Shown here: positions 4,680 to 32,099 of the stretch, one piece after another | Position numbering within the stretch: the stretch's first letter is position 1 | Layout: each line of letters starts with the position of its first letter | Source of the DNA: a virus | Lineage: Duplodnaviria; Caudoviricetes | DNA length: 32,099 nucleotides | Strand: one strand, 5' to 3' | IMG/VR virus record: IMGVR_UViG_3300037423_001090 | Location: 1 to 32,099 of that record | Translations under genes and position numbers: made by a program | The notes under the pieces: generated by a model | The model's input: the letters and a program-made list of their open reading frames with translations, nothing else | Told to the model about the DNA's origin: nothing | Database searches by the model: none

Positions 4680-4955
4680 TTAGTCGGGCGCTTCCGTGAA
4701 AGTCACGTAATACTTCTTCCCGACGACAAGCTTGTCGTTGACGGCTTGGTTAAGAATGGAACCCTTGAACTCCGCATACGGAGTCCAGTGGCCGAACACG
4801 GCGTTTTCGGACGCTTGCTGTTTCTCGGTCGACCCTTCCCACACTGCGCCGAAATGAACCGACTGCCCAGGCATCTCCTCGTTTGTCGAGCTGTAGCCCT
4901 TCATCGGATTTTTGCTGTGCAGTTGGAGCTTGCAGACCATAACTTGTTCAGACAT
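4680..4955 (-). CDS. Conserved hypothetical phage protein
   Basis: MSEQVMVCKLQ...ENAVFGHWTPYAEFKGSILNQAV...GKKYYVTFTEAPD; AGGTGA RBS. Confidence 0.75.
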   Translation of the reverse strand: MSEQVMVCKLQLHSKNPMKGYSSTNEEMPGQSVHFGAVWEGSTEKQQASENAVFGHWTPYAEFKGSILNQAVNDKLVVGKKYYVTFTEAPD

Positions 4956-5031
4956 TTCGTCACCTATCAAAAGAGAGCACCCTTGCGGGCTGATATAGGG
5001 CGGTTGTCTTACGGTCTTGCGGCCCTGCTAA

Positions 5032-5200
5032 TTGTTTGTGGCGGCCGGTGCTGGCGTTCCGGCTCCGTGAATCGCTTGCTGCGCTCTCGGCCGTGAGCCT
5101 CTGTGCTAGCTGTGCTCATGGCGTCAACGAGCGCCGATACGCGAGTCCACGGGAAGTCGTATCGATCTACGCATCAGCTAATGCGCATGCACCACACAAC
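5032..5200 (-). ncRNA. Candidate structured RNA with tRNA-like architecture in the late leader
   Basis: Closing stem UGUGGUG(5196-5190)/CGCCACA(5043-5037); 5' hairpin UGCGCAU-uagcug-AUGCGUA; 3' hairpin GCCGG-aacgccagca-CCGGC; loops complementary (GCUG/CAGC). Confidence 0.45.
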
Positions 5201-5367
5201 TGCGCTCTGCTGGAGCCGTGCCCCGCCCGTCTAGAACAGGAGGCAAAGCGCATGTGTGTGGCCACCGGTTACGCCGGTGAGGCGCCGACGCCCGCATAAG
5301 GCAGCGTTCGCAGCATTCAACAGTCGGGTTTGAATCAGCGGGGCCGAGCCGCTGTGCGTCGGAAATG

Positions 5368-7231: not shown

Positions 7232-8266
7232 CTAGACACTCGACAGCCGCTGAAAATACTGCTTTTCGTACTCGACCGGCGACAGGTCATTGCTGAAGCC
7301 GTGCCGCCGCTTCGGATTGTAGAACATCTCGATATAGTCGAAGACATCCTGCTTTGCTTCTTCACGGGTGCCATAGGTTTTGCGACGAATCCGTTCCCGC
7401 TTGAGCAACTGGAAGAAGCTCTCGGCAACGGCGTTATCGTGGCAGTTACCGCGCCGGCTCATGCTTTGCTGCAGATTGTGCGCGTCCAGAAAGTCGCGCC
7501 AATCGTAGCTACTGAATTGACTGCCTTGATCGGAATGCACCATCACCGTATTCTTGGGTTGCCTACGCCAGACGGCCATCAAGAGCGCGTTTATCGCGAG
7601 CTCGCGATCGATGCGCGAACTCATCGACCAACCGACCACCTGGCGCGAAAACAGGTCAAGTACCACGGCCAGATAGAGCCAGCCTTCGTACGTGCGGATA
7701 TAGGTAATATCCGTCACCCAAACTCGATTAGGTTCCTGCACGTCAAACTGGCGCTGCAAATGATTTGGCGCCACCAGCGAAGGGGCGCCGCCGCGTTTGT
7801 ACTTGCGCTTGGCGTAGCCGGTCTGCGAGCGGATTCCGGCCGATCGCATCAGGCGATGAACGCGATTGATACCGCATTGTTCACCCAGTTCGCGCAAGTC
7901 ATCGCTGACCTTGCGGTAACCGTACACGCTGCCGCTTTCCAGCCATGACTCCTTGATGGGAACCAGCAGCCGCCTGTCTTCTTTGGCGCGGCGGCTTTCG
8001 GGGTTCAGACGCCAGGCATAAAAACCACTGGGATGCACGCCGAGCACCTTGCACAGCCGCCGCACAGAGAATTGGTCCTGAAACTCAGCAATGAAGGTGT
8101 ACCTTACCCGGACGTCTTGGCAAAGTACACCGCGGCCTTTTTCAAGATGTCGCGCTCCTCCGTGACGCGCTTCAACTCGGCCTTCAGGCGCCGCATTTCC
8201 TCGGCCTGGGAATCCACCGCTTTGCGCTCCTCTTCGGGCACGCCGTAGCGCTTTGTCCAGGTGCAC
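7232..8266 (-). CDS. IS3 transposase OrfB (DDE/rve), probably expressed by -1 frameshift from OrfA
   Basis: WVTDITY, HSDQGSQF, DNAVAESFF catalytic motifs; A5G slippery site at 8137-8142. Confidence 0.95.
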   Translation of the reverse strand: MHLDKALRRARRGAQSGGFPGRGNAAPEGRVEARHGGARHLEKGRGVLCQDVRVRYTFIAEFQDQFSVRRLCKVLGVHPSGFYAWRLNPESRRAKEDRRLLVPIKESWLESGSVYGYRKVSDDLRELGEQCGINRVHRLMRSAGIRSQTGYAKRKYKRGGAPSLVAPNHLQRQFDVQEPNRVWVTDITYIRTYEGWLYLAVVLDLFSRQVVGWSMSSRIDRELAINALLMAVWRRQPKNTVMVHSDQGSQFSSYDWRDFLDAHNLQQSMSRRGNCHDNAVAESFFQLLKRERIRRKTYGTREEAKQDVFDYIEMFYNPKRRHGFSNDLSPVEYEKQYFQRLSSV

Positions 8267-8382
8267 AGGCTATGGATACTCACTCCCAGGCGCGCCGCGA
8301 CTTCGCTCGCCGGGTGACCGCGCTCCGCCACCTGCTTGACCGCCGCGATCTTGAATTCCTCTGTGTACCGCTTTCCGCTCAT
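8104..8382 (-). CDS. IS3 transposase OrfA (HTH)
   Basis: MSGKRYTEEFKIAAVKQV...ELKRVTEERDILKKAAVYFAK. Confidence 0.95.
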   Translation of the reverse strand: MSGKRYTEEFKIAAVKQVAERGHPASEVAARLGVSIHSLCTWTKRYGVPEEERKAVDSQAEEMRRLKAELKRVTEERDILKKAAVYFAKTSG

Positions 8383-20761: not shown

Positions 20762-21207
20762 GCCCACACCCCCGACGGCACCAAGTTGAAGAACGCCGCC
20801 ATCAGCGGGTGATGCGCCGGAATGGCCTTCGACACGCGCACCTTGAACTCGACGTCGTCCTCCATGATGTGGAAGTGGCGCGCCGGATCCTGAGCCGCGA
20901 TCGTCAGTTCGCACTTGCGAGGCTTCGCCGGGCGCGAAGCTGCTTGCTCGTCCAGCCTGGCGAGGTAGGCGTCGACCTTCGCTGCGTCGCTCGTGAGGCG
21001 GCACACCAGGTGGCCAGCGACATACACCGATTCGACGAGGCCGTGCAGGTCGACCATGTACTTGCGAACGCCCGACGGGCCGATGGCGAGCAGACCGCCG
21101 ACCTCATCGCGCGAGAGTTCGCTGACCTGCAGGGCAGTGATCAGGGTGCGCACGCGCTCGATGCGCTCCACGGTGCGGGATGGGGTGACGTAGCGGGAGC
21201 GGCTCAT
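20758..21207 (-). CDS. Winged-helix-like hypothetical protein
   Basis: ELSRDEVGGLLAIGPSGVRKYMVDL HTH-like segment. Confidence 0.65.
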   Translation of the reverse strand: MSRSRYVTPSRTVERIERVRTLITALQVSELSRDEVGGLLAIGPSGVRKYMVDLHGLVESVYVAGHLVCRLTSDAAKVDAYLARLDEQAASRPAKPRKCELTIAAQDPARHFHIMEDDVEFKVRVSKAIPAHHPLMAAFFNLVPSGVWA

Positions 21208-21833
21208 GCTGCACCGCCGTTCTGGCATGGCGCTGCAGTAGCCCGGTCGATGCGTTCGATGTCGGCCAGGATCAAGGCAGCAGCTTTAACCAGGTTCCGG
21301 CGGTCGTCCGTCGGCTTCCACCATTCCTTGTCCCACGGCCAATCTTCAGGTGGCCCGTAGTTAAGGGCGTTGCCTTGCATGGCATAGCACGCAGCGGCCA
21401 TGGAAAGCTGCCCATCCTCGTAGTCGTCGTCCTGATCAGGATGCCAGCCTTCTTGCTCGACTTGCCGTCTGCGCTCGGCCAGCACGTCTTTAGCCGCCAG
21501 TGTTGTCGCACCCTGAAAGCTCAGCGCCTCAACCAGACGTGGATGGAGCTCGATCACATCGGCCGCAGGATCGACGATCTCGTTCTTATCCCACATGATC
21601 ACGTAACACATGCCACCGATGACGCGGCCGGGATAACCAGGCCCTTTATCCAGCGTGGCCTTGACGGCATCGTAGAAGGCGCGCAGATGCTCGGGATCTT
21701 CTTCGTCAAAGAACGTCGGCGCATTCTCCTTTGCGCCGCGCTCGGGGTAATAACCCTTGTCAATGTCGTGCAGAATGGACATCAGGTCGCCGGCTGCTTC
21801 GATGTCGCGCTCGGAAGGTTTCGCCATTTTCAC
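21204..21833 (-). CDS. Phage accessory protein (Ead/Ea22-associated C-terminal domain)
   Basis: DVLAERRRQVEQEGW...AAACYA...WPWDKEWWKP.DDRRNLVKAAALILADIERIDR. Confidence 0.75.
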   Translation of the reverse strand: MKMAKPSERDIEAAGDLMSILHDIDKGYYPERGAKENAPTFFDEEDPEHLRAFYDAVKATLDKGPGYPGRVIGGMCYVIMWDKNEIVDPAADVIELHPRLVEALSFQGATTLAAKDVLAERRRQVEQEGWHPDQDDDYEDGQLSMAAACYAMQGNALNYGPPEDWPWDKEWWKPTDDRRNLVKAAALILADIERIDRATAAPCQNGGAA

Positions 21834-22336
21834 GCTGCACCTCCGACTTCGAACATGTCGATAACGCGCGGATCGCGAACGGAAGCGTTCGCAGCGACGG
21901 CCTGCGCGAAGTCAGCTGCGGTCAGCTTCTGGCGACCGACCGCTTGCGCCTGATAGACGATGTCGCCGGGGCGGAGCCAGTCGTTTTCCCGGATCAGGTC
22001 AGGCAGAGACGATGCGCCAAACTCCTGACCAGTGACCGACCAGAACACGCCGCGGCCGATATCCATTGCCGCGAGCACGGCGCACGCATAGGACAGGCCG
22101 GCATGATCCGCGCCGTTGATGGCGCCGAACAGCGCACGCACCGCCTTGTGATGTTCAGGGCTGACGCAGGCGCTGATGTCGTCGCGCTCTTCCTGCAGGT
22201 AGTCGTTGGCCAGCGTCTTGGCCGCGCCAAGCAGCTGGACCGCGAGATTCGACCAGTGTGCCGCGCGCGCTTCGAACTGGCGCGAGGACTGATCTTCACC
22301 GACGTGCGCCGCCGGCGTGATTTTTTCTGATAACAT
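21830..22336 (-). CDS. Hypothetical phage protein
   Basis: 168-aa ORF, GGGAGAG RBS. Confidence 0.7.
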   Translation of the reverse strand: MLSEKITPAAHVGEDQSSRQFEARAAHWSNLAVQLLGAAKTLANDYLQEERDDISACVSPEHHKAVRALFGAINGADHAGLSYACAVLAAMDIGRGVFWSVTGQEFGASSLPDLIRENDWLRPGDIVYQAQAVGRQKLTAADFAQAVAANASVRDPRVIDMFEVGGAA

Positions 22337-22362
22337 GCGCTCTCCCTTGTAGTTGCTTCACT

Positions 22363-22387
22363 AAGCCCGCCTGGCCGCGGGCTTTTT
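22363..22387 (+). terminator. Intrinsic terminator facing the antisense (+) direction
   Basis: AAGCCCGC-ctggcc-GCGGGCTT hairpin with a T run on the + strand. Confidence 0.6.
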
Positions 22388-22511
22388 CATTTCTGCTGTC
22401 CTTCCAGCAGCTCTCGGTACTTCTTCTTGCTCATCACATGCCCGGGCTCGATCGGCGCCGGCTGTTGCTCTTCTTCGTTTTGCTGCATCTGCTTCCTTTC
22501 TTTGTTCAGGC

Positions 22512-22718
22512 CTAGGACGCCAGCTCGCGAATCTCCTTCACCGGCAAGTCCAAGCGCTCGTGGATTCGAAGAATCGTGCGGTCGCTCAGCAGTCGCATCC
22601 CCGAGCGCAGCTTGCTGATGTCCGGCGGCGTCATGCCCAACTCGCGGGCCAGGGCCGAGTCGCTCTTGATGTCGAACCGCTTGCGCAGCGTGTCCAGCAG
22701 CTTCGATACGTTTGTCAT
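22512..22718 (-). CDS. Small XRE-type HTH protein
   Basis: LLDTLRKRFDIKSDSALARELGMTPPDISKLRSG. Confidence 0.8.
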   Translation of the reverse strand: MTNVSKLLDTLRKRFDIKSDSALARELGMTPPDISKLRSGMRLLSDRTILRIHERLDLPVKEIRELAS

Positions 22719-22775
22719 CTCTTGGGCTCCCTGTTCGAGGTATTGGTGGCAGCATGCCCGCCGCCTGGGTCTTCC

Positions 22776-23228
22776 TTACAGCGAAGCCGGTTTCTCGGAC
22801 ATGCCGTTCAGGCGCTCGATCAGCTGCATCATTGGACGGAAGGCCTTGAACACCGCCGCGCGCACCCTTTCCACTTCGTGTTGTTCGACGCGACCATCTT
22901 CCAGCGTCATATGGACCTCATTCGCGACGTCGCCCAAGCGCTGCCAAATGCAGGTGACGTTTTCAAGCACGCCCATGTCCGAAGCGGGCTGTTCTTCGAG
23001 CTTCGTCAAGACAAAGCCATGTGACTCAGCCAGAGCGTGCAAAACCGAGTAGTCTTCCGTCAGCGACATCACACGCTCGATGTCGTCGATGGTCACGACG
23101 TTGGCCTCGTTGTTCGGATTGGCCTTATTGCGCAGGATCGTTGCCGACATACCGAGACGAGCAGCCAGGGCGATGCAACCGCCAGGTGCGGAGTGAACGG
23201 TTTGGTGGAAAGCGTCTTTGGCGTTCAT
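22776..23228 (-). CDS. Phage regulatory CII-family protein
   Basis: PGGCIALAARLGMSATILRNKANPN...LEDGRVEQHE; downstream of cro. Confidence 0.85.
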   Translation of the reverse strand: MNAKDAFHQTVHSAPGGCIALAARLGMSATILRNKANPNNEANVVTIDDIERVMSLTEDYSVLHALAESHGFVLTKLEEQPASDMGVLENVTCIWQRLGDVANEVHMTLEDGRVEQHEVERVRAAVFKAFRPMMQLIERLNGMSEKPASL

Positions 23229-23422
23229 GCTCTTGTCTCGCTAAAAAATGATGTTTTGGAAACTTGTTGTTGAGAGAATGCTTACATCGAAACTTCGCCA
23301 ACCCTGGAGCTCAACATGCCGGACACTGCCTTCGTACTGCTGAACTGCGATTTGATCGCTGTACCGCTTCAACTGGGTTGCGCCGGCGTCGTTACGATCT
23401 ATTGCGGGGCTAAGCGTGCTGG

Positions 23423-23677
23423 TCAGCTGCTGCCTGGCCTCGATGCAGCATCCTTTGAGTCGGTCGCACGACGCATCGGCGAATCGCCCGTGGCACCAGA
23501 GCAGCGCTCGGCATGCAGCTCCTCGAGTCGGTCGCCGATGAATTTCGAGGGGCGCGATCCCCGGGTTCCCGCCAAATACGCAGCAATCGTCGATTGCCCG
23601 CATGGGACCAGATCGGCCAACTCCTGCTGAGTAAGCCCGGACTTTAGTAGGTCCGACGTGATTTTTTGCGTATCCAT
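23423..23677 (-). CDS. cro: Cro-like repressor
   Basis: LLKSGLTQQELADLVPCGQSTIA HTH, divergent from the CI-like gene. Confidence 0.8.
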   Translation of the reverse strand: MDTQKITSDLLKSGLTQQELADLVPCGQSTIAAYLAGTRGSRPSKFIGDRLEELHAERCSGATGDSPMRRATDSKDAASRPGSS

Positions 23678-23685
23678 GGGCAAAC

Positions 23686-23749
23686 AATATCACGTTCGTG
23701 TTTGGACCGTCAACACCAACGTGATTGTGTTATGTATTACATTCGTGAT
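23686..23749. promoter_or_regulatory. OR: three 14-bp operators and divergent promoters
   Basis: ATCACgttcGTGTT (23689), AACACcaacGTGAT (23712), ATTACattcGTGAT (23736); minus-strand TTGACG-N16-GATATT. Confidence 0.8.
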
Positions 23750-24232
23750 ATGGATACTTTGGCAAAGCGGCTCATCTGGGCCCGAGAACAAAAGGGGCTT
23801 ACCCAGGCGGCGCTAGCGAAGCTAAGCGGCGTCACGCAGAGCACGATCGGGAATCTGGAATCGGGTATTCGGTCCAGCGCACGCCGTATCGTCGACATTG
23901 CTGCCGCACTCGATGTAAATCCGAACTGGCTGGCAAACGGTCAGGGAAATGCGACAGAAGTGGACCTAAATAAACTGGGCGTTGAGGAGCCCCTTACTCA
24001 GTACAGGGCAGTCAACGATGGCCCACGGAGCCGGCCTGTTGGGCGCGATGCCAACTATATGGAAGATGTTTCGCTGTCGTCCGAGACGACACTCGAACGA
24101 TTGAACGCGCGAGAGAAAATGATTCTTGAGCTATATCGCCGCTCGAGCGACGAAGGCAAGCTTATGATATACGGCGCCTGCAAGGCAGCCGCAGAATATA
24201 ACGACGCCACGATTGTCGGGCGCTCAGAGTAG
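23750..24232 (+). CDS. CI-like XRE repressor lacking an S24 peptidase domain
   Basis: LAKRLIWAREQKGLTQAALAKLSGVTQSTIGNLESG HTH; short helical C-terminus LNAREKMILELYRR; ATG abuts the third operator. Confidence 0.85.
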   Translation: MDTLAKRLIWAREQKGLTQAALAKLSGVTQSTIGNLESGIRSSARRIVDIAAALDVNPNWLANGQGNATEVDLNKLGVEEPLTQYRAVNDGPRSRPVGRDANYMEDVSLSSETTLERLNAREKMILELYRRSSDEGKLMIYGACKAAAEYNDATIVGRSE

Positions 24233-24421
24233 TTGCAGTTTGATTGCCTCCGCCGGGGTCGTTCGACGGTATGACTCCGACATCTCAACGAACACAGACT
24301 GCGCACTACGCTTCATGGCGCGAAAATTCGACACCAGGCGCCGCTCCTGAACCGTCAACTGAAACTCATCATTGTCATTCTCGGCCGCAAGGACCAACTT
24401 CGGCATCGTCTCGTCTGACAT
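24224..24421 (-). CDS. 65-aa protein resembling a repressor C-terminal helical domain
   Basis: AAGGAG RBS; LTVQERRLVSNFRAM resembles LNAREKMILELYRRS of the adjacent CI. Confidence 0.7.
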   Translation of the reverse strand: MSDETMPKLVLAAENDNDEFQLTVQERRLVSNFRAMKRSAQSVFVEMSESYRRTTPAEAIKLQLL

Positions 24422-24438
24422 CTTTACTCCTTTGCAAG

Positions 24439-24474
24439 TGTCCTACTAACTATATGGCGTAGGACATGTCCTAC
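24439..24474. promoter_or_regulatory. Perfect 16-bp palindrome plus extra half-site
   Basis: GTAGGACATGTCCTAC at 24459-24474; TGTCCTAC at 24439-24446. Confidence 0.55.
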
Positions 24475-24603
24475 ATGCAACGAAAAGAGCGGTCTTTATG
24501 GGCTATTTACGATGCATAAAACGACTAAGTATCACATTGCCCTACGCAAACATAAAGCTCTAGTTATCACTTCCGGTCTCAATACGGTATCCTGACCGGA
24601 AAA

Positions 24604-24624
24604 GTGCCATCGTTTGTATGGCAC
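24604..24624. promoter_or_regulatory. Inverted repeat upstream of the Arc-like gene (putative operator)
   Basis: GTGCCAT-N7-ATGGCAC. Confidence 0.45.
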
Positions 24625-24664
24625 TCGCAACACTGCTGTTCCGAAACGCGCAAGAATCGCGCGC

Positions 24665-24949
24665 ATGAAAGAACAGCCGCCCAAGAAGCCTCCCATCAAG
24701 ACCGCGATGCGCCTGCCCGCCGAGTTGCACGCCGACCTCAAAGAAGCCGCCGAGCGCGAAGATCATTCGATGAACGACGAGATCATCCTTCGCTGCACCG
24801 CCATGTCAGGCGGCGCCTCTCTCGCCACCATCCTTGCCCAGACCCAGCGCCTGAGCGAAGAAAATCGGCAACTCAAGGCGGAGGTCCAAAAAACTCAACA
24901 AATGGTTCAGTCCATCATTGACGCTCTAAGGCCGGGGAGAAAGCGCTAG
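24665..24949 (+). CDS. Arc-family ribbon-helix-helix protein with coiled coil
   Basis: KTAMRLPAELHADLKEAAEREDHSMNDEIILR. Confidence 0.85.
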   Translation: MKEQPPKKPPIKTAMRLPAELHADLKEAAEREDHSMNDEIILRCTAMSGGASLATILAQTQRLSEENRQLKAEVQKTQQMVQSIIDALRPGRKR

Positions 24950-24981
24950 CCATCGGGCGTTCATATTGTAGGTCCGAAACA

Positions 24982-24997
24982 CTGTATGTTCATACAG
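24982..24997. promoter_or_regulatory. LexA (SOS) box overlapping a leftward sigma70 promoter
   Basis: CTGTATGTTCATACAG (CTGT-N8-ACAG); minus-strand TTGACC-N18-TATACT with the -10 running into the box. Confidence 0.8.
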
Positions 24998-25067
24998 TAT
25001 AGGTTTGCATGTTGGGCAAGGTCAAGTAATTCTGTACCTTTGCACTCAACCTTTCTATACTGTCCGT

Positions 25068-25823
25068 ATGGATGATCTAAAACAACTTTTGGCTGCCTGG
25101 ATCCGCGATGCGCGGAAGGCAGCCGGACTATCTCAAGAGGACCTCGGCGCTAAACTAGCGCTCGAGATGGGCGACGACCGCGGCTATACGAAGGCCAACA
25201 TTTCCGGATGGGAGAACGTCAAGCATAGCCCTAGCCTGAAACAAGTGATGGCGATCGCTAAGGTCACTGGCGCCGGCCTTCCTGCGCCAATACTCGATGT
25301 GCTCCAAAACGATCAGCCAAGCGCTGCAACAATCCCGACAGGCGCCGACGTCTTGAGGCTGTTTCCTGGGGCTCGACCTGTACGTGTAGGCGACGAGCTG
25401 CACACGCTACCGATCCGGTTCGTGAAGCTGAAACTTCATGCTGGTGTCGCCCGCTTCGAGACTGAGCCAGTGCTTGAGGATTGGGGCTTGCTACCCATGC
25501 CGAGATCTGTGATTGAGAAGCACAACCTTTCACCGGCCCAGTTGCTCGCAATGCGTGTTTCAGGCTGCAGCATGGAGCCGATGTTGTTTGAAGATGATGT
25601 CGTCGTCATCAACACCGCGGATACGCGCCCGATAAGCCGCGAGGTGTACGCCGTCAACTTCGATGGCGAAGCTTGTGTCAAGCAGTTGCGCTACCAGGGC
25701 GGTCAGTGGTATCTGCATTCATTCAATCCAGATTTCGGACCGATCAACATGCGCAGCGGCCAGTGCAACATCGTCGGACGTGTGGTCTATCAGCCCGGCC
25801 GAGTCGTGACGGGGCGCCTGTAG
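25068..25823 (+). CDS. XRE HTH plus S24 peptidase repressor (CI/LexA-like)
   Basis: HTH GLSQEDLG...YTKANISGWE; LHAG cleavage site; VSGCSMEP catalytic Ser; ACVKQL Lys. Confidence 0.9.
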   Translation: MDDLKQLLAAWIRDARKAAGLSQEDLGAKLALEMGDDRGYTKANISGWENVKHSPSLKQVMAIAKVTGAGLPAPILDVLQNDQPSAATIPTGADVLRLFPGARPVRVGDELHTLPIRFVKLKLHAGVARFETEPVLEDWGLLPMPRSVIEKHNLSPAQLLAMRVSGCSMEPMLFEDDVVVINTADTRPISREVYAVNFDGEACVKQLRYQGGQWYLHSFNPDFGPINMRSGQCNIVGRVVYQPGRVVTGRL

Positions 25824-26078
25824 AGTGAGAAATCCAAACACTGAGCAGCCATGACCGACAGTGCATCTCTGCGGCCGCACAGGCACTAAACGATTACATC
25901 GTCGCCAGTGGGGCGAGCACCTCAACCTCGCTGGATTCTCGGCTATTGCCATGTCTCCCGAAAATTCTTATTACGCACGGGAACGTGAGAATGTGTTGGT
26001 CTTTTGCCAAAATAACATGGTATTATTCCTATATGCAATGGAACTGGTGAGTTGCTGCATACTTAAGGAGTAGCATAA

Positions 26079-26264
26079 ATGATGCTCGACGCGCATGACG
26101 CGGACGCCACGCAGATCGAACCGCCTCATCAAGATGGCGCGTCTGAGATTCAGGCGCCCCCTGCCAGTAAATCGGCATTCAGGCGAGTGGTCGGCTTGCT
26201 GCGAAGTATGTGGGAGCCGGCGCCAGAGCAAAGCGAAGAGGAACAGCAAAGCAGGGCTTGGTGA
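26079..26264 (+). CDS. Small hypothetical protein
   Basis: TAAGGAG RBS before ATG; 61 aa. Confidence 0.5.
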   Translation: MMLDAHDADATQIEPPHQDGASEIQAPPASKSAFRRVVGLLRSMWEPAPEQSEEEQQSRAW

Positions 26265-26442
26265 TAACCAGCTGATTCCGCCCTGTAGAATCCGCAGGGC
26301 GAAATTTGAATCTCGACATTCACGCCGGCACAGAGTTGCGCAATCGGTAGCGCCGGGCCTGGCGCAGTACGAAGCCTGGGACGCGCAGCGCCTGACGTAG
26401 TCAGTCCGATTAGCCGGCTACAACTCGACCGATCGCGAAGTA

Positions 26443-27063
26443 TCAGCCGGCTCGGAAGTCGACAGTTTGGTTAGCTTTGCCGTGATTACAATCTTCGCAT
26501 AAGACCTGTAGATTCTCGATGTCTAGCGCTAGAGCGGGAAATCGGCGGCGCGACTTAACGTGATCAACGTTTAGGACCACCCCAGCCCCAGGCGTCGCGC
26601 CACAGCAAAGGCAAACGCGACCATACTTTTTGAACGCCTGGAGCCGCAACTGACGCCATTCGAATGACTTGAGGAATTCTGCCGAGTTGACATAGGCACC
26701 CCACTCTGATGCGGAAGGGAGCGGCTTGGGGGCCGAGCTTGGCTCCGCCGGCACGGATATGGGCGCAATCGTCAGGCCCAGTGTCTTCATTGCCTTCGCC
26801 ACTACCCGCTTAGCTTTCCGCACCTTCTTTGACTCCTTCGGCGTAGCGCCGAAGAGTGCAATATTAGTTTCTTTTCTTGCCCTCAAATCCGCCTTGCGAG
26901 CTCGCATCGCAGCGTACATTGCATCGCCATCCACATCTTTTAAACGGTTCTTCTTAAACCATCCAGATGGCAGCGGGTAGTCAATGCCTGCAATTTTTGC
27001 CTCAGCGAGCGTTAATGCCGCGGAGCCACGTCGGTACTTAGCAATGTACTCTTCTAATGTCAT
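26443..27063 (-). CDS. HNH endonuclease with basic N-terminal extension
   Basis: FLKSFEWRQLR...CLCCG...LNVDHVKSRRRFPALALDIENLQVLCEDCNHGK. Confidence 0.88.
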   Translation of the reverse strand: MTLEEYIAKYRRGSAALTLAEAKIAGIDYPLPSGWFKKNRLKDVDGDAMYAAMRARKADLRARKETNIALFGATPKESKKVRKAKRVVAKAMKTLGLTIAPISVPAEPSSAPKPLPSASEWGAYVNSAEFLKSFEWRQLRLQAFKKYGRVCLCCGATPGAGVVLNVDHVKSRRRFPALALDIENLQVLCEDCNHGKANQTVDFRAG

Positions 27064-27096
27064 GAGGCAACTTAAGACTGAGATCAACAGATCATC

Positions 27097-27288
27097 TCAT
27101 TTTACACGACGCTTCCGAGGCTTACGATCGCCGCGTGGCAGCTTCATGTCGAACCTTGGCAGCCATCGCTCAAATACAGTCAGCAGCAGGCCAGGCGGAA
27201 CATACCAAGTCTTCAGCTCAGCATTCCATCGAGCGCCCAACCGTCGGGCTTCGTCTTTTTCCGCGTAGGGCACGTTCAGTTTGGTCAC
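27097..27288 (-). CDS. DUF5710-like protein
   Basis: LNVPYAEKDEARRLGARWNAELKTWYVP; GTG start after GGAGG. Confidence 0.8.
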   Translation of the reverse strand: MTKLNVPYAEKDEARRLGARWNAELKTWYVPPGLLLTVFERWLPRFDMKLPRGDRKPRKRRVK

Positions 27289-27316
27289 GGCCTCTATCCC
27301 TCCTGCGCACGCGCGC

Positions 27317-27364
27317 ATTAGATAACTCGAACTCAGAATATAGACAACTCGACTGTTATCTAAT
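27317..27364. repeat. Direct/inverted repeat cluster (iteron- or operator-like)
   Basis: ATTAGATAAC (27317) / GTTATCTAAT (27355) inverted; TAGAYAACTCGA direct repeats at 27319 and 27341. Confidence 0.6.
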
Positions 27365-27797
27365 CAAGCTGGCTTCTACTACGGCCGCTTCGCTGCACGC
27401 TTGCTTCGCAAGCTCTCGCACTATCGTGCTCGGCGATATCTTTTCTTTACTTACGTTTTTTCTCTAGCCCCCAACCCCAGAGATATAGCTAATACGCGTG
27501 CATATGCGAGCGCGTACGTTTCGCTTCCTTCAGGCGTTAGCTCGACAAGCGTTTTCACGCCCGAGGCACCATCCGACAGACTTTCGGGTACAAGGCTCTC
27601 TCTTCGCCACCTTGTGTGAGTCTCACCCTCGCCCCCCCGTTTTTTTCACCAGGTCGCAGTCTCACCTATCCCCCTACACCTGTGTGTTTTCTGCATGTAG
27701 GGCGGCTGATTCCGTCAGCTCGGTTGCTCTCTGGGCCTTTAGCGTCGGAGTTTCCCTCCCCGCCCCAGGCTTGCAATCAGCAGAACTCACCTGATGG
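27365..27797 (-). ncRNA. Candidate large structured RNA
   Basis: No convincing ORF; more than 8 hairpins, GAAA loops and G-U pairs favouring the minus strand; TAAAAT -10 at 27807-27802. Confidence 0.55.
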
Positions 27798-27815
27798 ACG
27801 AATTTTAACCCAATC

Positions 27816-27856
27816 ATCACGTTTGTGTTGATCTTTTTAAACACGTATGTGATACT
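27816..27856 (+). promoter_or_regulatory. OL operators and pL-like promoter
   Basis: ATCACgtttGTGTT (27816), AACACgtatGTGAT (27840), same consensus as OR; TTGATC-N17-GATACT. Confidence 0.82.
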
Positions 27857-27890
27857 GTGTTCAACGTAGCGAACTCAACCAGGAGCCGCA

Positions 27891-28049
27891 ATGACGCAGA
27901 CGACCAAGCCGAGCAATCAACAAGTGCGTAGTTGGATGCACCGGCGCCAGGCGGACAGAACACCGCCGCCGGCGCCGGATCAGGTCCGGATGGAACTGGG
28001 CTGGAAGATGGTTGAGGCAGAGCGAGAGACGAATAGGATCAAACGATGA
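27891..28049 (+). CDS. First gene of the pL operon, 52-aa hypothetical
   Basis: AGGAG RBS; MTQTTKPSNQQVRSWMHRRQ...PPPAPDQVRMELGW; ATGA coupling. Confidence 0.7.
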   Translation: MTQTTKPSNQQVRSWMHRRQADRTPPPAPDQVRMELGWKMVEAERETNRIKR

Positions 28050-28234
28050 ACACCCTGAAGAACGACGGCTACCGATTCATGGTGAGCCCTACCGGCCGCG
28101 AAGCGAACTGGATTCACCCGCTGGAAGTCGAGGCGCGCGCACCGGGCTGGCACGACTGCACGGACATGGACGACACCGAGTTCGATCTATTCATGGCCGA
28201 ACTGCGCGTGAAGTTTCCTCCCTTGGCTGCGTGA
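28046..28234 (+). CDS. Hypothetical phage protein
   Basis: 62-aa coupled ORF. Confidence 0.7.
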   Translation: MNTLKNDGYRFMVSPTGREANWIHPLEVEARAPGWHDCTDMDDTEFDLFMAELRVKFPPLAA

Positions 28235-28242
28235 GGAAAGAC

Positions 28243-28677
28243 ATGAGCAAGCAATGGGATGAAGCCTACCTGCGCGAAGTGTTCGCCGATGAAATCGCAC
28301 TGGCAGCCGTGCACAAGAACTGGTTCCTTCTTCGTTTTGAAGCCCCGGCCTTCCTGGGGCTGAGCGAAAGCCTCGTGCCGCGGCGTGGCCGGTCCCTCGT
28401 GGGCGGCACAAACAGCCGCTTGGAGTTCGCATCGACTCGGCCAACGACCCCGCCCCACTGGCGCCGCGACTGGGCCGCAGCTGGTCCGCTGATTGGCTTG
28501 TTGGGCCTGAGCGTCCGACCCGACGACGATGAAGGCTGCGTCTCTGTTGGCAACGGCAGCCGCCGGCGTGACGTCACGGAATCGTATGCCGACCATCCGG
28601 ATAAAGACGCAGCAATCCTCGCAGCCATCGTGCGCGCCGCGATTCGAGTGTGTACCGAAGCGCGCGAAATCTACTAA
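28243..28677 (+). CDS. Phage ABA-sandwich-like protein
   Basis: PHWRRDWAAAGPLIG...AAILAAIVRAAI; GAGG RBS. Confidence 0.65.
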   Translation: MSKQWDEAYLREVFADEIALAAVHKNWFLLRFEAPAFLGLSESLVPRRGRSLVGGTNSRLEFASTRPTTPPHWRRDWAAAGPLIGLLGLSVRPDDDEGCVSVGNGSRRRDVTESYADHPDKDAAILAAIVRAAIRVCTEAREIY

Positions 28678-28707
28678 CCCGAACTACTCGACCATCTGGA
28701 GATCACC

Positions 28708-28839
28708 ATGCGCTTTCGTATCACGATTCGAACCGCCCGCGGCATCAAGACCGTATCCGTGATTGGCGACCGCAACGACCTGCTCGACGCCGCGTACGAC
28801 GCCGGTGCCCTGGGCGTGACTCTGGTGGCCGAATCATGA
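28708..28839 (+). CDS. 43-aa hypothetical protein
   Basis: GGAG RBS; MRFRITIRTARG...AYDAGALGVTLVAES. Confidence 0.6.
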   Translation: MRFRITIRTARGIKTVSVIGDRNDLLDAAYDAGALGVTLVAES

Positions 28840-28943
28840 GCCGCTACCAGATCAGTGCGCGACTGGCTTCTTACGCGATCCACTGCGTTGCTGCTGTCGT
28901 GCTGGTACTGACCATTGTCTACAGCCAAGCGGCGCTGCAGTAA
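28836..28943 (+). CDS. 35-aa single-TM peptide
   Basis: MSRYQISARLASYAIHCVAAVVLVLTIVYSQAALQ; ATGA coupling. Confidence 0.5.
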   Translation: MSRYQISARLASYAIHCVAAVVLVLTIVYSQAALQ

Positions 28944-28974
28944 TCGCCGAACCCACAACAACAAGGAACCCAAG

Positions 28975-29874
28975 ATGTTTTTCAAGAACCTGCAGGTGTA
29001 TCGACTTCCGCAAAACTGGGACATGACCGCCGGTCGCCTGGCCGACGCCCTCGCCTCCCAGGCCTTCACGCCGGCATCGAGTAACGAACTGCTGCGCCAG
29101 GGCTGGAAGGCGCCGCGCGGAACCGGTACGCCTTTGGTGCACGCCGTGAACGGCCAGTTCCTGCTAACGCTGGCCACCGAAAAGAAGATCCTGCCGGCGA
29201 AGGCAGTCAATCAAGTGGCGAAGGCGCGGGCCGCGGAGCTCGAAGAGCAGCAAGGCTTCCCGCCCGGGAAGAAGGCCATGAAAGAACTGAAGGAGCGCGT
29301 CGCCGACGAACTGCTGCCGCGCGCCCTCTCCGTCCAGTCTGAAACCAACGTGTGGATCGATCCCGTCAACGGCTGGCTCGTGGTCGACGCAGCCAGTGCG
29401 AACAAAGCGGATGACGTCATCAAGTTCCTGCTGAAGGCCGTCGACAAGCTGCCGCTGGAATCGCTGCGCGTGCAGCGCTCGCCGGTCGCCGTGATGACCG
29501 CATGGCTCGAGTCCGACGAGGCACCGCATAACTTCACGATCGACCAGGATGCCACGCTGCGCGCTACCGGTGAAAGCAAGGCCCAAGTCGGCTACAAGCG
29601 TCACACGCTCGAAGTCGGCGAGATGCGTGAGCACATCGCCCGCGGCAAACAGTGCGTGCGCCTGGCCATGACCTGGAACAGCCGGATCTCGTTCGTGCTG
29701 ACCGAGCAGCTGGAAATCAAGAGCGTCAAGCCGCTCGACGTCATCAAGGAAAACGACGCGATCACGTACGACCATAACGAACGCTTCGACAACGACTTCG
29801 CCCTGATGACGGGCGAGTACGCGAAGCTTCTGGCCGATCTGGTCGAAGCACTTGGCGGCGAGGCCCAGGGATGA
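28975..29874 (+). CDS. rdgC: Recombination-associated protein RdgC
   Basis: MFFKNLQVYRL, EKKILPA, LLPRA, RISFVLTE, DFALMTGE...LVEALGGE. Confidence 0.95.
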   Translation: MFFKNLQVYRLPQNWDMTAGRLADALASQAFTPASSNELLRQGWKAPRGTGTPLVHAVNGQFLLTLATEKKILPAKAVNQVAKARAAELEEQQGFPPGKKAMKELKERVADELLPRALSVQSETNVWIDPVNGWLVVDAASANKADDVIKFLLKAVDKLPLESLRVQRSPVAVMTAWLESDEAPHNFTIDQDATLRATGESKAQVGYKRHTLEVGEMREHIARGKQCVRLAMTWNSRISFVLTEQLEIKSVKPLDVIKENDAITYDHNERFDNDFALMTGEYAKLLADLVEALGGEAQG

Positions 29875-30056
29875 GAAAGCGTCGAATCCGCCGCAACTTC
29901 GGTGAGACCGAACAGGGACTCACCGCCGAAGACCGCAAGGCGATGCAGACCTACCGCACGAACCGCGGATCAAGTCGCTACTACCGCGACCTGGACGAGA
30001 TCAACACCAGCACAGCGGCTGACGGAAAACCAAAGACCAACGACCAACCGAAGTAA
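29871..30056 (+). CDS. Small basic hypothetical protein
   Basis: 61-aa ORF overlapping the rdgC stop. Confidence 0.55.
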   Translation: MRKRRIRRNFGETEQGLTAEDRKAMQTYRTNRGSSRYYRDLDEINTSTAADGKPKTNDQPK

Positions 30057-30070
30057 AACAAGGAGAAACC

Positions 30071-30679
30071 ATGAGCCATCAAAACGACCATCCGACGATC
30101 CTGGGCGAGCCTTTCGAGGGCGGCTTCTACGCCGGCCGCATTCAGGTTGACGGCGTGCCGCACATCCTTATTGTCGCCCCGAAGGCCGAGGGGGAGCGCG
30201 CAGACGTAGCCTGGCTGGAGGCGGAAGACCGCGTCGATGGCGCCGATAGCTACTGCGACGGGATGAAGAACACCGTAGCGATGGCCGAATGCGGCAGCGA
30301 GCTTGCGAACTGGGCTCGTGCCCTGACGATCGGCGGTCACACGGACTGGTACGTCCCGAGCCAGGACGAGCTGGAGGTCTTATACCGCAATCTGAAGCCG
30401 ACCACCCGCAGCAATTCGCTGTACGGTCGCTCCGGCATGAACGTCTCTGCCGTGCCGCCCACCTACGCATACACCGCAGAGATCCCTGCGCAAACTGCGG
30501 CATCGGCATTCGTAGAAGGCGGCGAGCAGGACTTTGCTGACGATTGGTACTGGTCGAGCACGCAGCACGCTTCCTACGATGGATCTGCCTGGACTCAGGA
30601 CTTCGACTACGGCGACCAGGACGACACCAGCAAGTCGGCCGAGTTGCGCGCCCGCGCCGTCCGCAGATTCGCAATTTAA
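30071..30679 (+). CDS. DGR target protein 1 (DUF1566/C-type-lectin-like)
   Basis: GGHTDWYVPSQDEL, WYWSST, RARAVRR; C-terminal VR1. Confidence 0.92.
   Translation: MSHQNDHPTILGEPFEGGFYAGRIQVDGVPHILIVAPKAEGERADVAWLEAEDRVDGADSYCDGMKNTVAMAECGSELANWARALTIGGHTDWYVPSQDELEVLYRNLKPTTRSNSLYGRSGMNVSAVPPTYAYTAEIPAQTAASAFVEGGEQDFADDWYWSSTQHASYDGSAWTQDFDYGDQDDTSKSAELRARAVRRFAI
30560..30669 (+). repeat. DGR variable repeat VR1
   Basis: 110 nt, 12 mismatches to TR, all at TR adenines. Confidence 0.97.
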
Positions 30680-30706
30680 CAATTCATCTATTTTTCGGAG
30701 CCGCAC

Positions 30707-31165
30707 ATGACCACCGTTACTCTCGCGGACATCGAAGCCGCACACCAGCAGGTCAGCGACATGATCCAGGCGTTCAAAGCCCAGGCCCCGCGCGTCACTC
30801 GCATCGCACAGGCGGAGATCGAACTGCAGCCGGGTGAACACTACGCCGGCATCATCCTCAGCGCCGATGGCAAGCCGTCGCATCACCTCATCCTGCTGCC
30901 GGGCGATGTCGACGATGTCACCTGGGCGCAAGCGAAGGAATTCGCCGAGAAGGCAGGCGGCGAGCTGCCGACGCGCCGCGAACAAGCCCTGCTGTTCGCG
31001 AACCTGAAGGATCAGTTCGAGGAGCGCTACTACTGGTCCGGCGCGCAGCACGCTTCCTACGATGACTATGCCTGGACTCAGCACTTCGGCTACGGCACCC
31101 AGATCCTCAGCAGCAAGTCGGCCGAGTTGCGCGCCCGCGCCGTCCGCAGATTGACCATTCAGTAA
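30707..31165 (+). CDS. DGR target protein 2 (DUF1566/C-type-lectin-like)
   Basis: TWAQAKEFAEKAGGELPTRREQALL, YYWSG, RARAVRR; C-terminal VR2. Confidence 0.92.
   Translation: MTTVTLADIEAAHQQVSDMIQAFKAQAPRVTRIAQAEIELQPGEHYAGIILSADGKPSHHLILLPGDVDDVTWAQAKEFAEKAGGELPTRREQALLFANLKDQFEERYYWSGAQHASYDDYAWTQHFGYGTQILSSKSAELRARAVRRLTIQ
31043..31152 (+). repeat. DGR variable repeat VR2
   Basis: 110 nt, 14 mismatches to TR, all at TR adenines. Confidence 0.97.
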
Positions 31166-31182
31166 TTTAACAATTTCTCAGC

Positions 31183-31536
31183 ATGGCACTCCACACAAGC
31201 TTGCCGATTTACAGGGTGGCGTATGACCTCCTCGACGTCGTCACGGACCTCGCCAAGAACATGCCGCGTGATTTCAAGGCATCGATCGGCGGAAAGATTC
31301 GCGATGAAGTCGTGGAGATCGTAACCCTGATTTACCGGGCCAACGTCGCCCGGGAAAAGGCGGCGCACCTGCAGGATCTCGTCGAGCGTCTGCAGGTGGC
31401 AGAACTGCTGATTCGTCTCTCGCGCGACAAGCGCCTGATATCGACGAAGCAGTATGCCGCCGCAGTCGAGCTCACGACCAGCATCGGCAAGCAGGCAAGT
31501 GGTTGGCGCCGTTCCGCATCGCCCGCTTCACGGTAG
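31183..31536 (+). CDS. avd: DGR accessory variability determinant (Avd-like four-helix bundle)
   Basis: LPIYRVAYDL...MPRDFKASIGGKI...IRLSRDKRLIS...IGKQASGW; between the targets and TR/RT. Confidence 0.9.
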   Translation: MALHTSLPIYRVAYDLLDVVTDLAKNMPRDFKASIGGKIRDEVVEIVTLIYRANVAREKAAHLQDLVERLQVAELLIRLSRDKRLISTKQYAAAVELTTSIGKQASGWRRSASPASR

Positions 31537-31547
31537 TCAAGGCTGCC

Positions 31548-32099
31548 ATGACTGAGCGATTTCTTAATCTGGTCGTGCCGCTGGCTCATAAGGCCACCGC
31601 CATGCGCATAGCAGGGACCTCCCGACATAGTTCGGGACCGTCTGGCGCAGTTTCCCCGCTGATCGGTCAAGGCGACCTTCGGAGGGGTGACGTAGATAGC
31701 ACGAACAAACGCAGCACGCTTCCAACGATGAATATGCCTGGAATCAGAACTTCAACAACGGCAACCAGAACAACAACAACAAGTCGGCCGAGTTGCGCGC
31801 CCGCGCCGTCCGCAGATTATCCCGGCCGCCACCATGCTGACTTTTCTTTCGATGAACTTGTACAGGCCTATCTGGACTGCCGCCATGCGAAGCGCAGCTC
31901 CGCCAGCGCTATCGCGTTCGAACAAAACCAAGAGCGCAACTTAGCTCAGCTGCGCGACGAACTGCTGGGCGGAACGTATCGCCCTGGGCGGTCGATCTGC
32001 TTCGTCATCACGCGCCCGAAGCCGCGCGAGGTATGGGCGGCGGATTTCCGCGACCGTATCGTGCACCACCTGCTTTACAACCGTATCGCGCCGCGCTTC
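31548..32099 (+). CDS. DGR reverse transcriptase, 5' part (start uncertain: 31548, 31602, 31728 or 31734; truncated by window)
   Basis: Manual translation ...FSFDELVQAYLDCRHAKRSS...GTYRPGRSICFVITRPKPREVWAADFRDRIVHHLLYNRIAPRF = RT domains 0-2; absent from the ORF track (no stop in window). YxDD not visible. Confidence 0.9.
   Translation, partial: MTERFLNLVVPLAHKATAMRIAGTSRHSSGPSGAVSPLIGQGDLRRGDVDSTNKRSTLPTMNMPGIRTSTTATRTTTTSRPSCAPAPSADYPGRHHADFSFDELVQAYLDCRHAKRSSASAIAFEQNQERNLAQLRDELLGGTYRPGRSICFVITRPKPREVWAADFRDRIVHHLLYNRIAPRF
31709..31818 (+). ncRNA. DGR template repeat (TR)
   Basis: AAC-rich copy of both VRs (34 adenines, 10 AAY codons in the VR frame); located between avd and the RT core. 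Confidence 0.96.

What the first reader, a model, noticed from the sequence alone, without database searches (positions are those of the whole stretch)
30071..32099. Two-target DGR in the phage early (pL) operon, diversifying small non-tail lectin-fold proteins
Seen: one TR (31709-31818) matches two VRs (30560-30669 and 31043-31152) with 12 and 14 mismatches, every one at a TR adenine, followed by avd and an RT. Ten AAY codons allow about 15^10 variants per target. Known: adenine-specific mutagenic retrohoming as in Bordetella phage BPP-1, whose target is the tail tropism protein Mtd. Inference: these targets are 202- and 152-aa proteins with no fibre or signal features, downstream of rdgC under the repressor-controlled pL promoter. 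They may be hypervariable intracellular binders (e.g. anti-defence or host-takeover adaptors) rather than receptor-binding proteins.
Basis: partly seen in the sequence, partly recalled or inferred. Interest (0 to 1): 0.92.

Follow-up and report, generated by a model that had tools for sequence, protein, structure and literature searches.

The report
Frozen phage mutator, early lectin-fold targets
A temperate soil phage carries a real targeted-mutation cassette (a DGR) aimed at two small lectin-fold proteins encoded among its early genes rather than its tail genes; this copy's enzyme gene is cut short, so its variants are likely frozen, but relatives still mutate, and a DGR-made relative in a lytic jumbo phage lies in an early-expressed block and was not detected in virus particles, so these proteins likely act inside the infected cell.

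Summary
The TR/VR observation is exact (12 and 14 mismatches, all at TR adenines; 10 AAY codons). The targets are stand-alone DUF1566/Lcl_C C-type-lectin-fold proteins in a leftward early operon with lambda-like operators. But an identical assembly that runs past the window shows the RT frame ending 15 codons later, before YxDD; that stub is recorded on 10 contigs and both VRs are invariant on 11, so this copy is most likely dead. The family is common and active: 66 of 80 related phage loci have an intact RT, near-identical pairs differ almost only at TR adenines, and no tail gene lies on the cassette's strand. The layout is in print (phage Magia; short DUF1566 targets; 'non-structural' viral targets) and this scan has found it on at least 13 other genomes. 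New here: jumbo phage PA5oct holds an orphan allele that matches the TR of P. aeruginosa DGR phages at adenines; it lies in an early-transcribed block and is absent from the published virion proteome. That is indirect experimental support for a non-virion role. The ligand is unknown; anti-defence is inference. New member of a known kind.

The parts
23423..23683 (-). cro-like HTH gene
   Evidence: HTH_3/phrog_6831
23689..23749 (.). three operator-like sites (23689-23702, 23712-23725, 23736-23749) between cro and the divergent repressor gene
   Evidence: pattern AWYAC-N4-GTGWT, 5 sites in the window, chance mean 0.34 (pattern drawn from these sites)
23750..24232 (+). cI-like repressor (HTH); likely binder of the operators (inferred)
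   Evidence: HTH_3 5e-15, phrog_8/phrog_4
27816..27856 (+). pL-like promoter read by eye (TTGATC 27828-27833, 17 nt, TG-n-GATACT 27851-27856) overlapped by two operator-like sites (27816-27829, 27840-27853)
   Evidence: sequence; best 14-mer shared with the cro/cI gap 13/14, 1 of 300 shuffles as good, 13 other gaps 9-12. Not listed by the consensus promoter scan
28975..29874 (+). rdgC
   Evidence: PF04381 2e-110
30071..30679 (+). target 1, 202 aa, Lcl_C/DUF1566 C-type-lectin fold, net charge -17
   Evidence: PF07603 46.4 bits over cut-off; model matches Lcl C-terminal domain 8q4e Z 8.1
30560..30669 (+). VR1
   Evidence: 12 A-only mismatches to TR
30670..30696 (+). AT-rich IMH-like tail of VR1 (role inferred)
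   Evidence: shared with VR2, absent after TR; conserved after 102 VRs, not after 54 TRs
30707..31165 (+). target 2, 152 aa, N-terminal helix plus C-type-lectin fold; predicted homodimer
   Evidence: PF07603 5e-6, under cut-off; model pLDDT 96; 8q4e Z 13.1
31043..31152 (+). VR2
   Evidence: 14 A-only mismatches to TR
31153..31179 (+). AT-rich IMH-like tail of VR2 (role inferred)
31183..31536 (+). avd
   Evidence: PF22296 1e-15, phrog_3206
31517..31711 (+). RT-15 structured RNA, the 5' spacer of the template RNA
   Evidence: Rfam RF03018, 163.6 bits, gathering 82
31709..31818 (+). TR, 10 AAY codons
31548..32099 (+). 5' part of the RT frame (open from just after avd through the TR; start inferred); broken at the window's last base in the identical longer assembly

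Best explanation
This is a two-target DGR (target-target-avd-TR-RT) in the leftward early operon of a temperate phage of a likely Massilia-like host; its RT is cut before the catalytic motif, so its two variants are likely frozen, while in active relatives the cassette rewrites small lectin-fold proteins that likely work inside the infected cell, most likely by binding a host protein that would otherwise restrict the phage. Shown: A-specific TR/VR pairs, Avd, RT-15 RNA, lectin fold of the models, early-arm position, RT break, ongoing A-specific change in relatives. Inferred from the BPP-1 paradigm (established knowledge): Avd-RT copies the TR RNA with errors at adenines and the cDNA replaces each VR at its GC-rich/IMH end. 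Inferred here: loss of repression opens pL, so targets and mutator are made together early in lytic growth and progeny leave with new alleles; target 2 is predicted to form a dimer whose two VRs lie side by side; the next host selects the allele. The ligand (defence or regulatory protein) is a hypothesis.
For: TR/VR statistics. RT stub: L001; break at residue 199 of a 476-aa relative, before CDLANFF 243, GLPIG 312, YVDD 347; exact stub on 10 contigs, targets, RdgC and the next gene on 11 each, each target a one-member 90% cluster; contigs of 4 of the 11 holder runs span VR1's variable part with no other letter in 4 of 4 and VR2's in 3 of 4. Family activity: L004/L005 differ at 14 of 95 TR-A sites, 0 of 232 other VR sites, 0 of 4,674 outside; L072/L073 36/78, 1/138, 3/4,785; L014/L016 17/33, 1/78, 45/4,586. 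Position: 11 consecutive + genes with gaps of -4 to 31 nt from 27891 on, no + terminator found there, shared operators; of 67 non-duplicate loci 56 have early markers, 0 a tail gene on the cassette's strand, 12 head/tail genes on the other strand; in 4 phages 95-100% complete the TR matches only the early cassette, and G003's head-tail module is on the other strand. All 142 targets are 75-216 aa, none of 136 has a hydrophobic N-terminus. PA5oct EST35_0104 is a homologue (HHalign 99.5%, 36% identity) whose tip differs from the TR of DGR phages phPA-G/Haboob at 16 adenines and 3 other sites (P 3.6e-7); it lies in the gp34-gp105 block that PMC7318152 calls early and is absent from the supplement with the 93-protein virion list, where control EST35_0051 is found. 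Target 2 homodimer: score 0.83, best of 3 controls 0.00; mark reached by 20 of 30 solved homodimers and 1 of 23 single chains; runs agree in at least 98% of contacts, pLDDT 91; interface includes VR residues 129-133 (trimeric or dimeric lectin domains are solved, so likeness may contribute).
Against: No ligand or phenotype is known; no PADLOC hit. The same fold tips long collagen, peptidase-S74, laminin-G and tail-fibre proteins of phages and extracellular adhesins (Lcl, Bd2740). Roux 2021 warns that unannotated viral targets may be unknown structural proteins. PA5oct evidence is from an orphan in another phage; the paper says 'most' genes of the block are early (no per-gene value seen) and MS can miss low-copy proteins. 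The window, and contigs in runs X2 and X8, end exactly at the RT break, which suggests a fork in the assembly graph, so a minor allele with another continuation is open; contigs drop rare variants; the 11 runs may be one strain from one campaign. 7 of 17 near-identical pairs show no VR difference and 10 of 80 loci lack an intact RT, so activity is not universal. pL is read by eye, not mapped.
Confidence: 0.6

Rival explanations
1. The targets are small virion accessory adhesins or decoration proteins encoded outside the late module; the DGR tunes adsorption as in BPP-1.
For: Lectin fold shared with adhesins and with long phage fibre-like proteins; Magia authors mention host range; target 2 has a neck-helix-plus-lectin build.
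Against: Early arm and opposite strand to tail genes in lambdoid, and early/middle region in Mu-like genomes; same cassette in phages with different tail types and a captured allele in a jumbo myovirus not detected in virions.
Confidence: 0.15
2. The targets serve the lysogen or the infecting phage against other phages (superinfection exclusion or phage-phage sensing) by binding incoming phage proteins.
For: Hypervariable binders suit fast-evolving phage ligands (inference); some relatives place a target right beside the repressor.
Against: In this window the genes sit behind operators like those at cro/cI, so they would be silent in the lysogen; a strictly lytic jumbo phage keeps one.
Confidence: 0.12
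3. This very copy is still active, through a minor allele with an intact RT or an RT supplied in trans by another prophage.
For: Window and two runs' contigs end exactly at the break; that contig is 14-20% deeper than its neighbours in X2 and X8; TR, RT-15 RNA, avd and IMH-like tails are intact.
Against: Stub on 10 contigs, one sequence per target on 11; no VR variants in laid contigs.
Confidence: 0.12
4. The proteins are intracellular but bind a small molecule or glycan (for example a signalling nucleotide or envelope precursor), not a protein.
For: Closest solved fold is the Lcl domain, recalled as a glycan binder; the predicted dimer joins two VRs into one surface.
Against: Ten randomised positions rich in Tyr, Asp, Asn, Ser, Gly (857 of 1,143 counted as Y 226, D 198, N 151, S 140, G 132 plus minor residues) resemble antibody-like protein-binding faces; a fixed small ligand gives little reason for endless change (inference).
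Confidence: 0.1

Closest known systems
DGR of Burkholderia phage Magia (MT701587; PMC7883833)
   Same: RT plus Avd with short lectin-fold targets (genes 47, 57 named in print; gene 46 is 52% identical to target 2) between immunity repressor and integrase; RTs in one supported clade of 67 rows (98).
   Different: Magia's RT is full length; it has a dispersed target and no 202-aa target-1 type beside avd. The paper does not discuss the early location or test function.
Wu et al. 2018 category 'd' / CLec2 targets, architecture B1 (PMC5758913)
   Same: DUF1566 target, about half of which are short stand-alone domains; avd-TR-RT order; two targets occur in 13% of DGRs.
   Different: The example given is the Legionella surface lipoprotein LdtA; these targets have no signal or lipobox. 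Formal CLec2 alignment not run.
Roux et al. 2021 non-structural viral targets (PC_00009, PC_00007; clade 3) (PMC8144416)
   Same: Prophage-encoded proteobacterial DGRs with targets called non-structural/unknown.
   Different: Membership not tested here; no gene-context or proteome evidence in the passages read.
Bordetella phage BPP-1 DGR (mtd-avd-TR-brt)
   Same: A-specific TR/VR, Avd, gene order, C-terminal VR on a lectin fold.
   Different: Mtd is a tail-tip protein in the late module; here two small early proteins (Mtd matches target 1 only at Z 3.3), no hairpin after the VRs, and the RT frame runs through the TR.
DGRs of P. aeruginosa temperate phages phPA-G and Haboob, and orphan targets in phi_D3 and PA5oct-like jumbo phages
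   Same: Same RT family (61-62% to P0122), two small targets plus avd just past the CI repressor.
   Different: Intact RT in phPA-G/Haboob; none found in PA5oct, Deifobo, phi_D3 (3 of 5 records).

Membership tests
DGR | TR/VR pair with mismatches restricted to TR adenines | tested here: met
DGR | Full-length DGR RT with YxDD | tested here: not met
   frame ends 15 codons past the window in the identical assembly; stub on 10 contigs. Met in 66 of 80 relatives
DGR | Accessory Avd | tested here: met
   PF22296 above cut-off; NF033474 below cut-off
DGR | VR at the C-terminus of a C-type-lectin (or Ig) fold | tested here: met
DGR | IMH after VR differing from IMH* after TR | tested here: inconclusive
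   AT-rich motif after 102 VRs (AT 0.73) not after 54 TRs (0.44); function not tested
DGR | Ongoing mutagenic homing | tested here: not met
   no VR variants for this copy in contigs (rare variants invisible); met in relatives
BPP-1/Mtd-type tropism DGR | Target is a tail receptor-binding protein in the late module | tested here: not met
BPP-1/Mtd-type tropism DGR | DNA hairpin just downstream of the VR (feature recalled) | tested here: not met
   no stable fold after either VR, z +1.1 and +0.8
Wu 2018 category d / architecture B1 | DUF1566 target | tested here: met
   PF07603: target 1 above, target 2 below cut-off
Wu 2018 category d / architecture B1 | avd-TR-RT core order | tested here: met
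Roux 2021 clade 3 / PC_00009 | RT placed in clade 3 and target in PC_00009 | not tested
   their profiles were not searched
Magia-like early-arm phage DGR | Short stand-alone targets between repressor and integrase, same RT clade | tested here: met
   L001 map CI-rdgC-DGR-integrase; tree with the 89-residue RT piece (quick tree)
Phage anti-defence protein | Blocks a host defence system | not testable with these tools
   no assay; no PADLOC hit

The most novel reading that the evidence does not exclude
Early-arm DGRs are a phage library of hypervariable intracellular binders that neutralise host-specific defence or control proteins, and their winning alleles are frozen and exported: this phage froze its pair by losing the RT, and lytic PA5oct-like jumbo phages captured at least four different DGR-made alleles into their early region. 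DGRs would then be an adaptive counter-immune system of phages, not only a tropism switch.
Probability: 0.3. Interest if true: 0.85.

Novelty: new member of a known kind. Interest (0 to 1): 0.42.

Why it matters
Viral DGRs are read mostly as tail-fibre switches. A widespread proteobacterial clade instead randomises small early proteins, and what they bind is an open question. This locus itself adds little (a likely dead copy of a layout already in GenBank and in print), but the link to cultured P. aeruginosa phages makes the question testable now: two isolates with intact cassettes, and a well-studied jumbo phage whose orphan allele has published transcript and virion data pointing away from the particle. 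If the ligands are defence proteins, it is a programmable source of natural counter-defence binders.

Tried and rejected
ATG 31834 as RT start: wrong frame (error; frame fixed). Foldseek on PDB for target 1: no match at E<=0.001; fold came from the wide aligner. My ORF filter was too strict and that picked antisense frames over integrase and RT; context was therefore mapped by tblastn with markers, which sees only marker families taken from these loci (8 of 67 loci had none). Eleven of 136 targets pass a 19-residue hydropathy of 1.6; rejected as membrane segments because the matching stretch is a beta-hairpin in the model of target 1. One lipobox-like match (L052_t1) without hydrophobic leader, not pursued. 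Multiples-of-three spacer lengths are by construction and not used. No third-position bias in the avd-TR spacer (0.15/0.15/0.18), so no sign that its residues matter; it is the RT-15 RNA. Remote tail target: none in 4 near-complete phages; the ungapped scan missed one known VR in G005, and a further Lcl-like gene lies at G005 4836-5234 in the early arm. Gene whose end follows the RT break not identified. ESM Atlas gave only hypothetical clusters. The careful RT tree did not finish; the quick tree is quoted. Literature searches for an explicit early-operon claim: DGR+prophage+early region 0 papers; DGR+prophage+Burkholderiales+target protein 0; DGR+intracellular+phage+anti-defense 1 review, listing only; DUF1566+phage 12 listed; PA5oct+diversity-generating 3 listed, not read; 1 listed. 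Subscription papers are not covered.

Full report
Observation. No further VR exists in the window, L001 or the last 4.2 kb of that record. Target 1 (202 aa) and target 2 (152 aa) hit Lcl_C/DUF1566 (above and below cut-off), avd hits bAvd, and the last 267 bases are the start of a DGR RT. The avd-TR spacer is the Rfam RT-15 RNA (163.6 bits); Weinberg 2017 (PMC5737381, passages) speculated that RT motifs act in DGRs but does not name RT-15 in the main text.

This copy is most likely dead. The assembly is only the window, but IMG/VR contig L001 is 100% identical over 21183-32099 and goes on. There the RT frame stops 15 codons after the window's last base, at residue 199 of a 476-aa relative and before all catalytic motifs; the new sequence reads as the end of another gene followed by a ribosome site and an early-arm gene, which fits a deletion. 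The exact 139-aa stub is on record on 10 contigs; both targets, RdgC and the next gene on 11 each; each target is the only member of its 90% cluster. Eleven soil or rhizosphere runs hold the stretch; I laid 4 of them: one contig spans VR1's variable part without a changed letter in 4 of 4, VR2's in 3 of 4. Limits: contigs drop rare variants, the runs may be one strain, and the window and contigs of two runs end exactly at the break, which suggests a fork; a minor allele stays open.

The family is common and active. Avd found 161 viral stretches, of which the best 80 were kept: 51 have two VRs, 12 one, 8 three, 1 four, 8 none detected; 66 have an intact RT, 4 are cut by the contig end, 10 lack one. 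Of 17 near-identical pairs, 3 differ almost only at TR-adenine sites (14/95 vs 0/232 and 0/4,674; 36/78 vs 1/138 and 3/4,785; 17/33 vs 1/78 and 45/4,586), 5 differ there with poorly aligned flanks, 7 show no VR difference and 2 had no VR called. An RT search of GTDB genomes kept 80 of about 800 stretches; 57 close loci with avd carry mostly two (36) or three (15) short targets, in Massilia, Janthinobacterium, Duganella, Pandoraea, Pseudomonas, Gallionella and others. The window's RT piece falls with Massilia varians in a 13-row clade (support 100) inside an Oxalobacteraceae-rich clade (quick tree, 86 rows, window row only 89 residues), so the host is likely Massilia-like.

Position. The window is the control and early region of a temperate phage. 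Five sites fit AWYAC-N4-GTGWT, three between cro and cI and two at 27816-27853 (chance 0.34, but the pattern is post hoc); an unbiased comparison gives a 13/14 match between the two gaps, reached by 1 of 300 shuffles and by none of 13 other gaps. They overlap a lambda-like promoter read by eye, which the consensus scan did not list. Eleven + strand genes follow with gaps of -4 to 31 nt up to the RT. Among 67 loci (13 near-duplicates dropped), 59 had a marker, 56 an early one; repressor upstream in 12, recombination or rdgC upstream in 19, integrase or excisionase downstream in 23; no tail gene on the cassette's strand; head or tail genes on the other strand in 12; two Mu-like loci have head genes 6 kb downstream. 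In four phages 95-100% complete the TR matches only the early cassette.

Targets. All 142 are 75-216 aa. Target 1's model (pLDDT 76; VR under 50) best matches the Legionella Lcl C-terminal domain (Z 8.1, rmsd 2.9, 103 residues); target 2's (pLDDT 96) has a helix at 6-26 and matches it at Z 13.1 (rmsd 3.6, 112 residues). A homodimer of target 2 scores 0.83 against a best control of 0.00 (mark reached by 20 of 30 solved homodimers and 1 of 23 single chains; runs agree in at least 98% of contacts; pLDDT 91), with VR residues 129-133 meeting across the axis; this is a prediction. At 1,143 AAY positions Tyr, Asp, Asn, Ser and Gly dominate and Cys (3) and Ala (1) are nearly absent (RT bias and selection not separated). 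Against an intracellular role, the fold also tips long fibre-like phage proteins.

An outside test. Target 1 finds homologues in cultured Pseudomonas phages. phPA-G and Haboob carry the whole cassette just past the repressor; PA5oct, Deifobo and phi_D3 have the target but no RT. PA5oct EST35_0104 (36% identity, HHalign 99.5%) differs from the phPA-G/Haboob TR at 16 adenines and 3 other sites in 105 nt, two of which the donors' own VRs share (P 3.6e-7), and sits in an island of GC 0.50-0.56 amid about 0.30: a captured DGR product. Seven of the nine Wroclawvirus isolates listed were compared and carry four VR alleles; over 10 sequences, codons 126-163 have 0.34 non-synonymous differences per codon pair against 0.10 in the body. 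PMC7318152 (section 6, passages, supplement parts 1 and 3 and a search) calls most genes of gp34-gp105 early and lists 93 virion proteins; EST35_0104 is not in the file, control EST35_0051 is. This is indirect, but it is the only experimental evidence I found on where such a protein acts, and a small tail part of a D3-like phage would be of little use to a jumbo myovirus (inference). The pptx supplement could not be read.

Mechanism. Shown: anatomy, fold of models, position, break, activity in relatives. From established DGR biology: Avd-RT copies TR RNA with errors at A and homes to each VR. Inferred: derepression of pL co-expresses mutator and targets early in lytic growth; the targets bind a host protein inside the cell, most likely one that restricts the phage (target 1 is strongly acidic, a trait I recall for many counter-defence proteins); alleles are selected in the next host and can be frozen by RT loss or capture. 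Side feature: the RT frame is open from the avd stop through the TR in 49 of 56 loci (other frames 1 and 0) and 51 of 56 have no in-frame start between TR and RT core, so the template likely lies inside the RT coding frame.

Known or new. The Magia announcement (PMC7883833, main text read) reports this kind of DGR with short targets, and its record places them between repressor and integrase. Wu 2018 (passages) has short DUF1566 targets and two-target cassettes; Roux 2021 (section 9, passages, supplement passages) has non-structural viral targets in prophage DGRs. This scan holds 13 findings with the same words on other genomes and none naming PA5oct. It works like a DGR but, lacking YxDD, is a degenerate member. 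Verdict: new member of a known kind; interest 0.42, carried by the open ligand question and the PA5oct lead rather than by this locus.

Noticed in passing
L187:2501-2992 (PA5oct EST35_0104); L185, L189-L193: Lytic Wroclawvirus jumbo phages carry an orphan DGR target in a high-GC island of the early terminal repeat, with four different VR alleles among seven isolates, matching the TR of P. aeruginosa temperate phages at adenines.
   Followed up: yes
window 31537-31860: The RT frame runs unbroken through the RT-15 RNA and the TR, with no start codon after the TR in most relatives and frequent stop-start overlap with avd.
   Followed up: partly
window 32099 / L001:10917: The window ends exactly at the RT break; contigs in two runs end there too.
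   Followed up: partly
window 23750-24232 and 25068-25823: Two repressor-like genes in tandem, one HTH only, one HTH plus S24 peptidase, with an Arc-like gene between.
   Followed up: no
window 27571-27686 (-): Match to Rfam Betaproteobacteria-1 RNA, 45.7 bits, just under the gathering score 49.4.
   Followed up: no
window 7232-8382 (-): Two-ORF transposase (IS-like) inserted in the phage; the identical contig behind L001 ends at it.
   Followed up: no
window 1215-3698 (-): 827-aa ORF hitting a neck-passage-structure PHROG next to an HNH gene, the only structural-type hit in the window; no VR in it.
   Followed up: no
L186:5268-6576 (phage Medea1): Two tandem DUF1566 genes in the early region with no avd or RT annotated beside them, another likely frozen pair.
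   Followed up: no
L039-L041, L045, L089-L096, L183: Dispersed extra targets 2-8 kb from the cassette, some on the other strand or next to the repressor.
   Followed up: partly
L002:3331-3460: A relative has a different pair of palindromic operator-like sites at the same pL position, as expected for another immunity type (by eye).
   Followed up: no
L088: Closest relative lies on a 58-kb high-coverage contig filed in a Xanthobacteraceae MAG, probably a mis-binned phage.
   Followed up: no
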